Source of the DNA: a virus
Taxonomy: Duplodnaviria > Heunggongvirae > Uroviricota > Caudoviricetes
Length of the DNA stretch: 5,393 nt
Virus record (IMG/VR): IMGVR_UViG_3300023487_000099
Strand: one strand, 5' to 3'
Shown: in pieces, positions 3-5,141 of the stretch
Position numbering within the stretch: position 1 is the first letter of the stretch
Layout: each line of letters opens with the position of its first letter
Notes under the pieces: model-generated
What the model was told of the DNA's origin: nothing
The model's input: the letters and a program-made list of their open reading frames with translations, nothing else
Database searches by the model: none
Translations under genes and position numbers: made by a program

Positions 3-503
<501 letters not shown>

Positions 504-569: not shown

Positions 570-1169
570 ATGCGTAAAGTTTGTGCAGCCATTTTGTCCG
601 CAGCCATCTGTCTGGCCGTATCCGGTGCGCCTGCATGGGCGTCTGAACATCAGTCCACGCTGAGCGCGGGGTATCTTCATGCCTTGACGAACGTTCCCGG
701 CAGCGATGATCTTAACGGGATTAACGTGAAATACCGTTATGAGTTTACGGACACACTGGGGCTGGTGACGTCATTCAGCTATGCAGGAGACAAGAATCGC
801 CAGCTGACCCGTTACAGCGATACCCGCTGGCATGAAGATTCCGTTCGTAACCGCTGGTTCAGCGTAATGGCGGGGCCGTCTGTGCGCGTGAATGAATGGT
901 TCAGCGCGTATGCGATGGCGGGTATGGCTTACAGCCGTGTGTCGACTTTCTCCGGGGATTATATCCGCGTAACTGACAACAAGGGGAAAACGCACGATGT
1001 GCTGACCGGAAGTGATGACGGTCGCCACAGCAACACGTCTCTGGCGTGGGGAGCTGGCGTGCAGTTTAACCCGACCGAATCCGTGGCCGTTGACGTCGCT
1101 TATGAAGGCTCCGGCAGCGGTGACTGGCGTACCAACAGTTTCATCGTTGGTGTCGGTTATAAATTCTGA
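570..1169 (+). CDS. lom: Lom outer-membrane protein (Ail/Lom/PagC/Rck family 8-stranded beta-barrel), 199 aa
   Basis: N-terminal signal peptide MRKVCAAILSAAICLAVSGAPAWA with an AWA|SE cleavage-like site. The C-terminus …AYEGSGSGDWRTNSFIVGVGYKF ends in the aromatic residue typical of OMP barrels and matches lambda Lom as I recall it. Position between J and stf is as in lambda. Good SD; stop TGA at 1167-1169. Confidence 0.92.
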   Translation: MRKVCAAILSAAICLAVSGAPAWASEHQSTLSAGYLHALTNVPGSDDLNGINVKYRYEFTDTLGLVTSFSYAGDKNRQLTRYSDTRWHEDSVRNRWFSVMAGPSVRVNEWFSAYAMAGMAYSRVSTFSGDYIRVTDNKGKTHDVLTGSDDGRHSNTSLAWGAGVQFNPTESVAVDVAYEGSGSGDWRTNSFIVGVGYKF

Positions 1170-1222: not shown

Positions 1223-1233
1223 GTGGGGTGAAT

Positions 1234-4200
1234 ATGGCAGTAAAGATTTCAGGTGTACTGAAAGACGGCACAGGAAAACCGGTACAGAACTGCACAATCC
1301 AGCTGAAAGCAAAACGTAACAGCACCACGGTGGTGGTGAACACGCTGGCCTCAGAAAATCCGGATGAAGCCGGGCGTTACAGCATGGACGTTGAGTACGG
1401 GCAGTACAGCGTTATTCTGTTGGTGGAGGGATTCCCGCCGTCACATGCCGGGACCATCACCGTGTATGAAGATTCCCGACCCGGTACGCTGAATGATTTT
1501 CTCGGTGCCATGACGGAGGATGATGCCCGTCCTGAGGCACTGCGCCGTTTTGAACTGATGGTGGAAGAGGTGGCGCGTAACGCGTCCGCGGTGGCACAGA
1601 ACACGGCAGCCGCGAAGAAGTCAGCCAGCGATGCCGGCACATCAGCCCGTGAGGCGGCAACCCATGCGACTGATGCTGCAGGCTCAGCAAGCGCAGCCAG
1701 CACGTCAGCCGGACAGGCCGCGTCGTCGGCTCAGTCAGCATCTTCCAGCGCAGGAACGGCATCAACAAAGGCCAGTGAAGCATCGAAAAGTGCTGCTGCT
1801 GCAGAGTCCTCAAAAAGCGCGGCAGCTACCAGTGCCGCTGCGGCGAAAACGTCAGAAACGAATGCGGCAGCGTCACAACAATCAGCAGCCACTTCTGCAT
1901 CCGCCGCGACCACGAAGGCGTCAGAAGCAGCCACCTCAGCCCGGGATGCGGCGGCCTCAAAAGAAACGAACGCATCATCGAGCGCCAGTAGTGCCGCTTC
2001 CTCGGCAACGGCGGCAGGCAATTCCGCGAAGGCGGCAAAGACGTCTGAGACAAACGCCAGGTCTTCTGAAACGGCAGCGGAACAGAGTGCCTCAGCTGCG
2101 GCAGGCTCAAAAACAGCGGCTGCGTCGTCTGCCAGTGCAGCGTCAACAAGTGCCGGGCAGGCCTCAGCCAGTGCTAGCGCCGCCGGAAAATCGGCAGAAA
2201 GCGCCGCATCGTCCGCTTCAACAGCCACAACGAAGGCTGGCGAAGCCACTGAACAGGCCAGCGCAGCAGCGAGGTCTGCTTCCGCAGCGAAGACATCCGA
2301 GACGAACGCGAAAGCGTCGGAAACCAGCGCAGAATCCTCAAAAACGGCTGCCGCATCGTCCGCCAGTTCGGCGGCGTCATCGGCATCATCGGCGTCTGCT
2401 TCAAAAGATGAGGCGACCAGACAGGCATCAGCAGCGAAAGGCAGCGCCACGACGGCATCCACGAAGGCGACAGAGGCAGCTGGTAGTGCGACGGCAGCAG
2501 CTCAGAGCAAAAGTACGGCAGAATCTGCAGCAACGCGCGCTGAGACAGCGGCAAAACGGGCAGAGGATATTGCATCCGCCGTGGCGCTTGAGGATGCGAG
2601 CACGACGAAAAAGGGGATAGTACAGCTCAGCAGTGCGACCAACAGCACGTCTGAAACGCTGGCGGCAACGCCAAAGGCAGTAAAAGCAGCCTATGACAAT
2701 GCAGAGAAACGTCTGCAGAAAGACCAGAACGGCGCTGATATACCTGATAAGGGACGCTTCCTGAACAACATTAACGCGGTCAGTAAAACAGACTTTGCTG
2801 ATAAGCGTGGTATGCGTTATGTGCGGGTTAACGCTCCTGCAGGTGCAACATCTGGAAAATATTACCCTGTTGCTGTTATGCGTTCTGCTGGCTCAGTAAG
2901 CGAACTGGCATCAAGGGTCATTATCACCACGGCAACGCGAACCGCAGGCGATCCGATGAATAACTGCGAGTTTAACGGATTTGTTATGCCTGGTGGCTGG
3001 ACTGACAGGGGGCGTTATGCTTATGGAATGTTCTGGCAATATCAAAACAATGAACGAGCCATCCACTCAATAATGATGAGTAATAAGGGCGATGATTTGC
3101 GCTCTGTGTTCTATGTTGATGGCGCTGCTTTCCCTGTTTTTGCGTTTATCGAAGATGGCCTGTCAATATCCGCACCTGGTGCTGATCTCGTTGTTAATGA
3201 TACGACCTATAAGTTTGGGGCAACAAATCCGGCGACTGAATGTATCGCGGCGGACGTTATCCTTGATTTTAAGAGTGGGCGTGGTTTTTATGAGTCTCAT
3301 TCGTTAATCGTTAACGATAACTTGTCGTGCAAAAAACTTTTTGCCACAGACGAAATTGTAGCGCGTGGTGGTAATCAGATTCGAATGATAGGTGGGGAGT
3401 ATGGGGCATTATGGCGTAATGATGGCGCTAAAACTTACCTGCTGCTTACCAATCAAGGTGATGTTTATGGTGGCTGGAATACATTAAGACCGTTTGCTAT
3501 TGATAACGCAACCGGCGAACTGGTTATTGGAACCAAACTGTCCGCAAGTCTGAACGGTAATGCATTAACAGCAACAAAGCTGCAAACGCCAAGACGGGTT
3601 TCTGGTGTTGAGTTTGATGGTTCCAAAGATATTACTTTAACCGCCGCGCATGTGGCTGCTTTTGCCAGAAGGGCAACGGATACATATGCCGATGCGGATG
3701 GGGGCGTTCCCTGGAATGCCGAATCAGGCGCTTATAAGGTCACCCGCTCTGGCGACAGCTATATTCTGGTTAACTTCTATACCGTAGTCGGAAGTTGCCG
3801 GACCCTGCAGATGAAGGCGCATTACAGAAATGGTGGTCTGTTCTACCGTTCTTCAAGAGACGGTTATGGTTTTGAGGAAGACTGGGCAGAAGTTTATACT
3901 TCGAAAAATCTTCCACCAGAAAGCTACCCAGTCGGCGCACCAATCCCGTGGCCATCAGATACCGTTCCGTCTGGTTATGCCCTGATGCAGGGGCAGACTT
4001 TTGACAAATCTGCCTACCCGAAACTTGCAGCCGCTTATCCGTCAGGCGTGATCCCTGATATGCGTGGCTGGACGATTAAGGGCAAGCCCGCCAGTGGTCG
4101 TGCCGTATTGTCACAGGAACAGGACGGCATTAAATCGCACACCCACAGCGCCAGCGCATCCAGTACGGATTTGGGGACGAAAACCACATCGTCGTTTGAT

Positions 4201-4566
4201 TACGGCACTAAATCCACGAATAACACTGGTGCGCATATCCATAGTGTTAGCGGTACGGCTGCTTCAGCCGGTGCACATACCCATTCGATGACATTTGTTT
4301 CAGGTGGTTCCAGTGGTGCTCCGGGAAGTGGATCACCTGATTATTCTAAATACAGTGTTAACACTTCTTCTGCAGGCGCTCATACGCACTCTGTATCGGG
4401 TACTGCTGCAAGCGCAGGTGCACACGCACATACTGTCGGTATTGGTGCTCATACGCACTCCGTTGCGATTGGTTCACATGGACATACCATCACCGTTAAC
4501 GCTGCTGGTAACGCGGAAAACACCGTCAAAAACATCGCATTTAACTATATTGTGAGGCTTGCATAA
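1234..4566 (+). CDS. stf: Side tail fibre protein Stf (long, ~1110 aa, Rac StfR-like)
   Basis: N-terminus [37 protein letters not shown]… is the conserved lambda Stf N-terminal domain. A conserved fibre motif [25 protein letters not shown] follows the repeat block. The C-terminal part has the collar-like motif GAPIPWPSD…[17 protein letters not shown], then His-X-His repeats, and ends …[11 protein letters not shown] as lambda Stf does. The track starts the ORF at GTG 1228, but ATG 1234 reproduces the lambda N-terminus and has GGGG upstream. Stop TAA at 4564-4566. Confidence 0.93.
1579..2605 (+). repeat. Ala/Ser/Thr-rich low-complexity imperfect tandem-repeat block inside stf (fibre shaft)
   Basis: About 340 codons are dominated by A/S/T/K/E. 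The heptapeptide KTSETNA recurs at nt 1848-1868, 2038-2058 and 2290-2310, and phrases such as [16 protein letters not shown] and TKA(S/G/T)EA recur. Hand-counted GC is about 65% in one 60-bp line (2161-2220), reflecting GCN/AGC codons. Confidence 0.7.
4138..4485 (+). repeat. Seven His-X-His motifs in the Stf C-terminal tip (predicted metal-binding needle domain)
   Basis: Translation contains SHTHS, GAHIHS, GAHTHS, GAHTHS, GAHAHT, GAHTHS and SHGHT, which is seven HxH motifs between nt 4138 and 4485. Confidence 0.7.
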
Positions 4567-5141
4567 TGGCATTCAGAATGAGTGAACAACCACGGACCAT
4601 AAAAATTTATAATCTGCTGGCCGGAACTAATGAATTTATTGGTGAAGGTGACGCATATATTCCGCCTCATACAGGTCTGCCAGCAAACAGTACCGATATT
4701 GCACCGCCAGATATTCCGGCTGGCTTTGTGGCTGTTTTCAACAGTGATGAGGCATCGTGGCATCTCGTTGAAGACCATCGGGGTAAAACGGTTTATGACG
4801 TAGCGTCAGGGGACGAGTTATTTATTTCTGAACTCGGTCCGTTACCGGAAAATGTTACCTGGTTATCGCCGGAAGGGGAGTTTCAGAAGTGGAACGGCAC
4901 AGCCTGGGTGAAGGATACGGAAGCAGAAAAACTGTTCCGGATCCGGGAGGCGGAAGAAACAAAAAACAGCCTGATGCAGGTAGCCAGTGAGCATATTGCG
5001 CCGCTTCAGGATGCTGCAGATCTGGAAATTGCAACGGAGGAAGAAATCTCGTTGCTGGAAGCATGGAAAAAGTATCGGGTATTGCTGAACCGTGTTGATA
5101 CGTCAACTTCACAGGATATTGAATGGCCAGCACTGCCGTAG
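4566..5141 (+). CDS. tfa: Tail fibre assembly protein Tfa (chaperone), 191 aa
   Basis: [54 protein letters not shown]… matches lambda Tfa nearly residue for residue as I recall it. The ATG at 4566-4568 overlaps the stf TAA (TAATG), with GAGG at 4554-4557. Stop TAG at 5139-5141. Confidence 0.9.

What the first reader, a model, noticed from the sequence alone, without database searches (positions are those of the whole stretch)
4228..4431. Two copies of a 19-residue peptide repeat encoded by almost completely different codons
GAH(I/T)[13 protein letters not shown](T/A)H occurs at nt 4228-4284 and again at 4375-4431. Codon by codon, only 6 of 19 codons are identical. All three Ser codons switch between the AGY and TCN families (agt→tct, agc→tcg, tca→agc), which needs at least two substitutions each, and most Gly/Ala/Val/Thr/His third positions differ. 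The protein repeat is conserved while nucleotide identity is minimised. That pattern fits an old duplication under strong purifying selection, possibly with selection against homologous recombination between the copies.
Basis: seen in the sequence. Interest (0 to 1): 0.45.

Follow-up and report, generated by a model that had tools for sequence, protein, structure and literature searches.

The report
Paired iron-binding repeats in tail-fibre tip
The two identical-looking peptides are the up-going and down-going iron-binding "His-box" strands that flank the receptor-binding tip of a prophage side tail fibre; this is a known structural repeat, and its scrambled codons are what ordinary long-term drift at silent sites produces.

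Summary
Positions 4228-4284 and 4375-4431 encode GAH(I/T)[13 protein letters not shown](T/A)H twice: 17/19 residues are the same, 6/19 codons are the same, and all three Ser codons switch family.

Random synonymous codon draws give 5.6-5.9 identical codons, against 6 observed. Pooled over 19 cassette types, 107 codons are identical against 95.7±7.5 expected. Silent sites are therefore saturated, not minimised.

The gene is a lambdoid side tail fibre (lom-stf-tfa). Its last 215 residues align end to end with the T4 gp37 receptor-binding needle (PDB 2XGF, E 8e-89), and all seven iron-coordinating HxH boxes are in register. The two copies are stem boxes 2-3 (ascending) and 4-5 (descending), on either side of the 30-residue hypervariable tip.

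In all ~60 genome loci and 120 protein clusters checked except a few damaged variants, this 14-residue unit is present on both sides of the tip or on neither. Between alleles the gene backbone is 95-100% identical, but the arms and tip form an old, divergent cassette.

Of 68 distinct arm pairs, 67 are codon-divergent. Citrobacter koseri alleles are the exception, with 51-53/57 identical nucleotides, which indicates recent gene conversion. One collapsed, tip-less variant also exists; its junction lies in an 8-nt microhomology.

This is a known feature and of low interest.

The parts
1228..4566 (+). stf, a lambdoid prophage side tail fibre gene (1112 aa)
   Evidence: ORF listed. Pfam hits are PF08400 (N-terminus, E 1.5e-71), PF21446, PF07484 Collar and PF03335. 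Near-identical genes are annotated as prophage tail fibre / stfR in 3907 of 5426 E. coli genomes.
3934..4077 (+). Collar domain (aa 903-950) that precedes the needle
   Evidence: PF07484, E 7e-12. It aligns to the T4 gp37 D10 collar in 2XGF and PMC6957217.
4138..4146 (+). His box 1 (SHTHS, aa 971-973), at the start of the ascending stem strand
   Evidence: Coordinates. In register with T4 H883/H885.
4228..4284 (+). Repeat copy 1 ('arm 1', aa 1001-1019): ascending stem strand carrying His boxes 2 (4234-4242) and 3 (4276-4284)
   Evidence: It aligns to T4 G913-H931. T4 H929 and H931 bind iron and are essential (PMC6957217).
4285..4374 (+). Hypervariable tip / head insert (30 aa, [30 protein letters not shown]); presumed receptor-binding site
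   Evidence: It corresponds to the T4 tip subdomain 932-959. In other alleles it is replaced by unrelated inserts of 18-51 aa; 19 head types were found.
4375..4431 (+). Repeat copy 2 ('arm 2', aa 1050-1068): descending stem strand carrying His boxes 4 (4381-4389) and 5 (4423-4431)
   Evidence: It aligns to T4 G964-H982. The Pfam PF03335 hit lies at aa 1047-1060.
4450..4485 (+). His boxes 6 (AHTHS, 4450-4458) and 7 (SHGHT, 4477-4485): 9-residue descending units
   Evidence: In register with the last two boxes of T4.
4192..4227 (+). [12 protein letters not shown]: the His-free ascending unit that pairs with the 9-residue descending His-box units
   Evidence: The copy number of the 10-residue FDYGTK unit rises in step with the number of 9-residue descending boxes across homologues.
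4566..5141 (+). tfa, the tail fibre assembly chaperone. Its start codon overlaps the stf stop codon (TAATG).
   Evidence: PF02413, E 1.2e-42; ORF listed.
570..1169 (+). lom, an Ail/Lom outer-membrane protein gene upstream of stf
   Evidence: PF06316, E 3e-121.

Best explanation
The two 19-residue copies are the two halves of one structural rung in a T4-gp37-type trimeric receptor-binding needle. The chain runs up the stem (copy 1, His boxes 2-3), forms the hypervariable tip, and runs back down (copy 2, His boxes 4-5).

By homology with the T4 structure, each HxH box from the three chains would coordinate one iron ion on the fibre axis. The residues between the boxes must be small (G, A, S, T) or a single core hydrophobic residue, because the ascending and descending strands pack antiparallel against each other. 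That is an inference from the T4 homologue. This packing keeps the peptide almost invariant.

Silent sites are free to change and in this allele have drifted to saturation. That accounts fully for the 'different codons'; no selection for dissimilar DNA is needed. The arms and tip together form an old, divergent cassette set in a recently homogenised gene backbone.

Elsewhere in the family the arms are occasionally re-homogenised by gene conversion, which also helps keep the two peptides alike.

Shown here: the homology, the register of the boxes, the paired presence or absence of the unit, the codon statistics, the cassette boundaries, the converted alleles and the collapsed allele. Inferred: iron binding, the trimer and the packing in this particular protein.
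For: - Homology: the last 215 aa align end to end with PDB 2XGF (T4 gp37 tip), E 8.2e-89, with all 7 HxH boxes in register.
- T4 structure and genetics: the stem is 882-931 plus 960-1009, with the tip 932-959 inserted between them. H929 and H931 bind iron and are essential. G921 (arm 1 position 9) packs on F970 (arm 2 position 7) of another subunit, and G964 (arm 2 position 1) packs on H929 (arm 1 position 17). All from PMC6957217.
- Paired units: box spacings across about 60 genome loci and 120 protein clusters follow [22|H|9], [32|H|9,9], [42|H|9,9,9], [52|H|9x4], [32,14|H|14,9,9], [42,14|H|14,9,9,9], [22,14|H|14,9], [52,14|H|14,9x4] and [32,12|H|12,9,9]. Apart from a few damaged variants, the 14-residue unit is never on one side only.
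- Codon statistics: identity equals the random expectation here and over 19 cassette types. pS is 0.71.
- Cassette: allele backbones are 95-100% identical, while arm 1 is 63-88% and arm 2 is 68-88% identical and the tips are unrelated.
- Purifying selection: orthologous arms have pN 0.024 against pS 0.4-0.64.
- Conversion: C. koseri arms are 51-53/57 nt identical, and the similarity stops exactly at the arm edges. L052 arm 1 matches L063 arm 2 at 44/45 nt of same-residue codons (P < 1e-5).
Against: - No structure or metal analysis exists for this protein. Iron binding and packing are transferred from T4 at 69% identity.
- Distant homologues (Rahnella, Rosenbergiella, T4) have arms that are only 7-10/19 alike. 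The fold alone therefore does not force identical peptides. The 17-19/19 identity in E. coli alleles needs shared ancestry, conversion or a symmetric-packing optimum, and these were not separated here.
- The codon null assumes independent draws from gene-wide usage.
- Most sampled loci are related E. coli prophages and are not independent.
Confidence: 0.8

Rival explanations
1. Codon divergence between the copies is actively selected, because identical DNA repeats 147 nt apart would recombine and delete the receptor-binding tip.
For: Deletion between the arms does happen. P0096/L166 is a one-copy, tip-less variant whose junction lies in GGTGCACA, the longest run shared by the arms. In 67 of 68 distinct arm pairs the longest shared run is 17 nt or less, and usually 8 or less. 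No collapsed allele was seen at the top of two searches of 5426 complete E. coli genomes.
Against: Identity is not below the random-synonymous expectation in the window (6 against 5.6-5.9 codons). It is slightly above expectation when pooled (107 against 95.7±7.5; P(<=obs) 0.94). C. koseri alleles with 30-nt perfect runs and 89-93% arm identity persist in several genomes. Neutral saturation predicts the same pattern.
Confidence: 0.1
2. The two arms have no common origin. They look alike only because any strand in this narrow iron-stapled stem must read G-x-H-x-H followed by small residues (convergence).
For: The composition is restricted to G, A, S, T, V and H. The arms pack against each other in a pseudo-symmetric, antiparallel way in T4. 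Position 7 co-varies between arms (V/V, L/L, I/I) in 12 of 19 head types against 6.5 expected (P about 0.01, uncorrected).
Against: Rahnella, Rosenbergiella and T4 build the same rung with dissimilar peptides, 7-10/19 alike, so the constraint alone does not give 17-19/19. Direct evidence of DNA-level copying between arms exists. Pfam treats the unit as a repeat family, PF03335.
Confidence: 0.08
3. Recent duplication followed by targeted or accelerated mutation (for example a diversity-generating mechanism), or artificial recoding.
For: None beyond the appearance of different codons for the same peptide.
Against: The same codon-divergent arms occur in thousands of natural E. coli genomes and IMG/VR prophages. 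Differences are spread over all third positions rather than adenine-specific. The arms are the conserved part of the region and the tip is the variable part.
Confidence: 0.01

Closest known systems
T4 gp37 long-tail-fibre receptor-binding needle (PDB 2XGF; Bartual et al. 2010, cited via PMC11705849 and PMC6957217)
   Same: It shares 69% identity over 215 aa. Both have a collar, a stem of ascending and descending strands with seven HxH boxes at the same spacing [32,14|tip|14,9,9], a tip inserted between arm 1 and arm 2, the conserved C-terminal [15 protein letters not shown], and a chaperone gene immediately downstream.
   Different: The T4 arms are only 10/19 alike (GGHTHSGSGSTSTNGEHSH and GNHSHTFSFGTSSAGDHSH): Gly 'holes' on the ascending strand face Phe 'knobs' on the descending strand. 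Here both arms read SVSG, a symmetric solution. The tip sequences are unrelated. The rest of the fibre is lambdoid Stf, not T-even gp37.
Phage lambda (Ur-lambda) side tail fibre Stf and E. coli cryptic-prophage StfR/StfQ alleles
   Same: They share the N-terminal domain (PF08400), the lom-stf-tfa order and the needle plan. The lambda arms GAHAHSLSGSTGAAGAHAH and GSHSHSLSGTAVSAGAHAH are also codon-divergent, at 33/57 nt.
   Different: Lambda has eight boxes ([42,14|tip|14,9,9,9]), a 45-residue tip and arms that are 13/19 alike. The window allele has seven boxes, a 30-residue tip and arms that are 17/19 alike.
Pfam PF03335 'Phage tail fibre repeat' and the 'His-box' GxHxH motifs of T-even tail fibres (Tetart, Desplats & Krisch 1998; existence of the paper confirmed, its content recalled from memory)
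   Same: The repeat unit is this motif. PF03335 hits aa 1047-1060, the start of arm 2, and is precomputed on most homologues. The conserved boxes bracket the swappable specificity segment, as proposed for T-even phages. Here the backbone-to-cassette transitions fall at the first codon of arm 1 and inside the 3' half of arm 2.
   Different: In this allele series the arms themselves are divergent at DNA level between alleles. Present-day exchange therefore most likely uses the 95-100% identical backbone rather than the boxes.
Conserved-motif / hypervariable-segment layout of T2-type gp38 adhesins (Trojet et al. 2011; recalled from memory, listed in the references seen)
   Same: Conserved small-residue motifs frame hypervariable receptor-contact segments that are exchanged by recombination.
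   Different: It is a different protein and fold: monomeric, with a polyglycine sandwich and no iron. The resemblance is one of analogy only.

Membership tests
T4 gp37-type receptor-binding needle (PDB 2XGF) | End-to-end sequence homology of the C-terminal ~215 residues | tested here: met
   phmmer E 8.2e-89; query residues 74-288 align to chain residues 27-242.
T4 gp37-type receptor-binding needle (PDB 2XGF) | Series of HxH boxes in the stem, in register with T4's seven | tested here: met
   There are seven boxes at aa 971, 1003, 1017, 1052, 1066, 1075 and 1084. The spacing 32,14,35,14,9,9 compares with T4's 32,14,37,14,9,9.
T4 gp37-type receptor-binding needle (PDB 2XGF) | Collar domain before the stem, with the tip inserted between ascending and descending stem strands | tested here: met
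   PF07484 at aa 903-950. The variable insert at aa 1020-1049 aligns to the T4 tip 932-959.
T4 gp37-type receptor-binding needle (PDB 2XGF) | Homotrimer with each iron ion coordinated octahedrally by six His (an HxH from each of three chains) | not testable with these tools
   Known only for T4 (PMC6957217, PMC11705849). No coordinates or metal data are available for this protein.
T4 gp37-type receptor-binding needle (PDB 2XGF) | Dedicated assembly chaperone encoded immediately downstream | tested here: met
   tfa at 4566-5141, PF02413 E 1.2e-42.
Pfam PF03335 Phage_fiber repeat | Whole-protein score at or above the gathering threshold | tested here: met
   21.9 bits against a cut-off of 20; best stretch aa 1047-1060. 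The match is marginal, but PF03335 is also precomputed on most of the 120 homologues.
Lambdoid side tail fibre (Stf) | Prophage tail fibre N-terminal domain and lom-stf-tfa gene order | tested here: met
   PF08400 E 1.5e-71, PF06316 (Lom) upstream, PF02413 (Tfa) downstream. E. coli hits at 99.7% identity are annotated as phage tail protein / tfaQ.
Repeats kept codon-dissimilar by selection against recombination | Synonymous identity between the copies significantly below the random-codon expectation | tested here: not met
   6 identical codons against 5.6-5.9 expected. Pooled over 19 cassette types, 107 against 95.7±7.5, P(<=obs) 0.94.
Repeats kept codon-dissimilar by selection against recombination | No viable homologues with near-identical DNA copies | tested here: not met
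   C. koseri alleles have 51-53/57 nt identical with perfect runs of 20-30 nt, in an NCBI genome and in Logan samples.

The most novel reading that the evidence does not exclude
The two stem arms evolve in concert. Because they pack antiparallel in a locally pseudo-symmetric way, the same peptide is optimal on both strands (position 7 co-varies V/V, L/L, I/I). Episodic intragenic gene conversion, caught in the act in Citrobacter koseri, resets them to identity, after which silent sites drift apart. Together with the strict both-or-neither presence of the 14-residue unit, this would be a simple 'paired-rung' grammar for lengthening or shortening iron-stapled fibre needles.
Probability: 0.35. 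Interest if true: 0.35.

Novelty: already known. Interest (0 to 1): 0.15.

Why it matters
As a finding it matters little. It re-identifies the HxH iron-binding stem repeat of gp37/Stf-type tail fibre tips, and its codon divergence is ordinary saturation.

It has some practical value for tail-fibre engineering. The comparison marks the exact limits of the natural swappable cassette (arm 1, tip and the 5' half of arm 2). It shows that stem units must be added or removed in matched ascending and descending pairs. It also shows that an 8-nt microhomology between the arms can already delete the tip, so synthetic designs should keep the arms codon-divergent.

Tried and rejected
- The primary structure paper (Bartual 2010) could not be read by DOI or by PMC id. 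Structural statements are therefore taken from PMC6957217 and PMC11705849.
- A full-text search for 'His boxes' found nothing. Only the existence of the Tetart 1998 paper could be confirmed; its content is from memory.
- A chimeric 'collapsed' query and the real collapsed junction were searched against 5426 complete E. coli genomes. All top-ranked hits were two-piece, uncollapsed alleles. Only the top rows are visible, so rare collapsed copies of other alleles cannot be excluded.
- The first regular expression for arm 2 was wrong and found nothing. It was fixed.
- An IMG/VR scan for relatives of the C. koseri allele found none closer than 67%. Independent copies came instead from the cluster look-up.
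- Structure prediction was not run. The tool folds monomers and returns no coordinates, so it could not test arm-arm packing in a trimer.
- A diversity-generating retroelement and synthetic recoding were considered and dropped. The arms are the conserved part of the region, and the same codons occur in thousands of natural genomes.
- The resemblance of L036 arm 2 to arm-1-type DNA (45/54, P = 0.03) is too weak after multiple testing to count as an exchange event.

Full report
**Observation**

The window carries lom (570-1169), a 1112-codon stf gene (1228-4566) and tfa (4566-5141). Within stf, nt 4228-4284 encode [19 protein letters not shown] and nt 4375-4431 encode [19 protein letters not shown].
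- 17 of 19 residues, 6 of 19 codons and 37 of 57 nucleotides are identical.
- Third positions agree in only 7 of 19 codons.
- All three Ser codons change between the AGY and TCN families.

The peptide match is far beyond chance. About 2e-10 such pairs are expected from composition, and the best match in 300 shuffles was 9/19. A DNA repeat finder does not see the pair in register. The best DNA repeat in the region is His box 4 against His box 6 (4375-4394 and 4444-4463, 18/20), which is out of register with the peptide repeat.

**Is the nucleotide identity 'minimised'?**

No. I drew synonymous codons at random from the gene's own codon usage for the 17 shared residues.
- This gives 5.6-5.9 identical codons, against 6 observed.
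- It gives 37.3±2.6 identical nucleotides of 51, against 35 observed (P(<=obs) 0.21-0.25).
- Three Ser family switches have P = 0.08.

Nei-Gojobori pS is 0.71, which is at saturation. Pooled over 19 different cassette types from E. coli, Citrobacter, Scandinavium, Dryocola, Yersinia, Rosenbergiella, lambda and T4, 107 codons are identical at 276 same-residue positions, against 95.7±7.5 expected. That is slightly more than random, not less. The pattern is saturation of silent sites, and there is no sign of selection for dissimilarity.

**What the peptide is**

The last 215 residues align end to end with the crystallised receptor-binding tip of T4 gp37 (PDB 2XGF, E 8.2e-89). A Collar domain (PF07484) precedes them, and Pfam's 'Phage tail fibre repeat' PF03335 hits residues 1047-1060, the start of copy 2.

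The protein has seven HxH boxes, at residues 971, 1003, 1017, 1052, 1066, 1075 and 1084. Their spacing is 32,14,35,14,9,9, the same plan as T4's 32,14,37,14,9,9.

In T4 the stem is formed by residues 882-931 and 960-1009, and the tip (932-959) is inserted between them. Seven iron ions lie along the needle, each held by HxH histidines, and H929 and H931 are essential (PMC6957217; PMC11705849).

Mapping through the alignment:
- Copy 1 corresponds to T4 G913-H931, the ascending strand with boxes 2-3.
- Copy 2 corresponds to T4 G964-H982, the descending strand with boxes 4-5.
- The 30 residues between them (4285-4374) correspond to the tip.

The same paper reports that G921 (arm 1 position 9) packs on F970 (arm 2 position 7) of another subunit. 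It also reports that G964 (arm 2 position 1) packs on H929 (arm 1 position 17). The two arms therefore lie antiparallel and in contact. That this holds for the present protein is inferred from 69% identity.

**A rule for the needle**

Homologues from phages and from about 60 bacterial genome loci have 4 to 9 boxes. The spacings fall into two series.
- [22|H|9], [32|H|9,9], [42|H|9,9,9], [52|H|9,9,9,9]. Each 10-residue His-free FDYGTK unit on the way up is matched by one 9-residue IGAHxHxVx unit on the way down.
- The same patterns with a 14-residue His-box unit next to the tip on both sides: [22,14|H|14,9], [32,14|H|14,9,9] (this window and T4), [42,14|H|14,9,9,9] (lambda), [52,14|H|14,9x4], and once [32,12|H|12,9,9].

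Apart from damaged variants, the 14-residue unit is never present on one side only. The finding's '19-residue repeat' is this paired unit plus its flanking box. The matched lengths follow from the two strands running side by side.

**The arms belong to an old cassette**

Among 79 IMG/VR prophage loci there are 28 distinct arm pairs and about 10 tip types. Compared with the window:
- the 300 nt upstream, the 135 nt downstream and tfa are 95-100% identical;
- arm 1 is only 63-88% identical and arm 2 is 68-88% identical;
- the tips are unrelated.

At single-nucleotide resolution, backbone identity stops at the first codon of arm 1 and resumes inside the 3' half of arm 2. Orthologous arms have pN about 0.024 against pS 0.4-0.64. 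The peptide is thus strongly constrained, while the cassette of arm 1, tip and arm 2 is much older than the backbone it sits in. This matches the picture recalled from the T-even literature of conserved boxes bracketing the swappable specificity segment (Tetart et al. 1998; only the existence of the paper was confirmed). Here, however, present-day exchange more plausibly uses the near-identical backbone.

**Are the copies always codon-divergent? Do collapsed variants exist?**

Across 184 loci with two-box arms there are 68 distinct arm-pair DNA sequences. The median identity is 38/57 and the range is 27-53. Sixty-seven of the 68 have 44 or fewer identical nucleotides.

The exception is a Citrobacter koseri prophage tail fibre (the P0100 cluster).
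- Its arms are 53/57 identical in a Logan contig.
- They are 51/57 identical, with a 30-nt perfect run, in NCBI assembly GCA_016503785.1 and in another sample.
- The similarity ends exactly at the arm edges.

That is the signature of a recent gene conversion or re-duplication. A further trace of exchange is that L052 arm 1 matches L063 arm 2 at 44 of 45 nucleotides of same-residue codons (P < 1e-5).

A collapsed variant also exists. P0096/L166 reads ...[28 protein letters not shown]... with a single hybrid arm and no tip. Its DNA is arm-1-type up to GGTGCACA and arm-2-type after it. The 147-nt in-frame deletion therefore occurred in the 8-nt run that is the longest identity between the arms. 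That gene is also fused at its N-terminus to a tape-measure fragment, so it sits in a decayed prophage. No such allele appeared at the top of two searches of 5426 complete E. coli genomes.

**Why are the peptides so alike?**

Fold constraint alone is not enough. T4, Rahnella and Rosenbergiella build the same rung with arms that are only 7-10/19 alike. Three factors remain, and I could not separate them:
- common descent with strong purifying selection;
- episodic conversion, which is shown for C. koseri;
- a symmetric packing optimum.

On the third point, T4 puts Gly holes on one strand and Phe knobs on the other, whereas here both arms read S-V-S-G. Position 7 matches between arms (V/V, L/L, I/I) in 12 of 19 tip types, against 6.5 expected (P about 0.01, not corrected for phylogeny).

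**Verdict**

It is wrong where it proposes minimised identity or selection against recombination. The feature is the known HxH iron-binding stem repeat of gp37/Stf-type tail-fibre tips, so it is already known and of low interest. The paired-unit rule, the cassette limits, the converted C. koseri alleles and the microhomology collapse are small comparative additions.

Noticed in passing
L167:409-1464; L249:301-1353; L250:301-1353: Citrobacter koseri prophage tail-fibre alleles have the two stem arms 51-53/57 nt identical, with perfect runs of 20-30 nt, and the similarity stops exactly at the arm edges. This is a recent intragenic conversion or re-duplication in an otherwise codon-divergent family.
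   Followed up: yes
L166:988-1902: This is a one-copy, tip-less stf remnant. A 147-nt in-frame deletion has its junction in the 8-nt microhomology GGTGCACA. The gene is also fused at its 5' end to a tape-measure (TMP_2) fragment, next to a DUF1441 gene.
   Followed up: yes
L093-L102, L143: Lambda-identical stf/tfa segments sit on contigs of about 48.5 kb or roughly 1x coverage in assemblies labelled Chromatium, Leeuwenhoekiella, Pseudomonas, Shewanella, Paenibacillus, Kitasatospora, Oceanobacillus and others. This is almost certainly lambda DNA contamination of those assemblies.
   Followed up: no
window 4237-4239: The first His box of copy 1 reads GAHIH (ATC). Every other arm 1 variant listed has Thr at this position (ACN). 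This is a single C-to-T change in the x position of an HxH box.
   Followed up: partly
window 4375-4394 and 4444-4463: His box 4 and His box 6 are 18/20 nt identical (GGYGCTCATACGCACTCYGT). This is the closest DNA repeat in the region, it is out of register with the peptide repeat, and the copies start 69 nt apart.
   Followed up: no
window 1500-2700: The Ala/Ser/Thr-rich low-complexity shaft of Stf (GC 0.58-0.63) contains recurring KTSETNA-type segments. It generates long spurious ORFs in other frames and on the opposite strand, for example 1631-2620 (+) and 1731-2462 (-).
   Followed up: no
P0007, P0081, P0099, P0104: Stf C-terminal needles are fused to terminase, DUF1441 or C40-peptidase fragments. 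Large internal deletions in decaying prophages repeatedly leave the needle and tfa behind.
   Followed up: no
L035; P0028; P0005: Some alleles lack one His box. In L035 a 14-codon deletion removes box 3. P0028 reads AHTY and P0005 reads GANTHS. These may be defective fibres or sequencing errors.
   Followed up: no
window 4563-4568: The stf stop codon and the tfa start codon overlap (TAATG), which suggests translational coupling of the fibre and its chaperone.
   Followed up: no
window 30-72: A 19-nt tandem repeat, 2.3 copies, 84% matches (GTCAGATTAAGGAGAAACT), lies upstream of lom.
   Followed up: no
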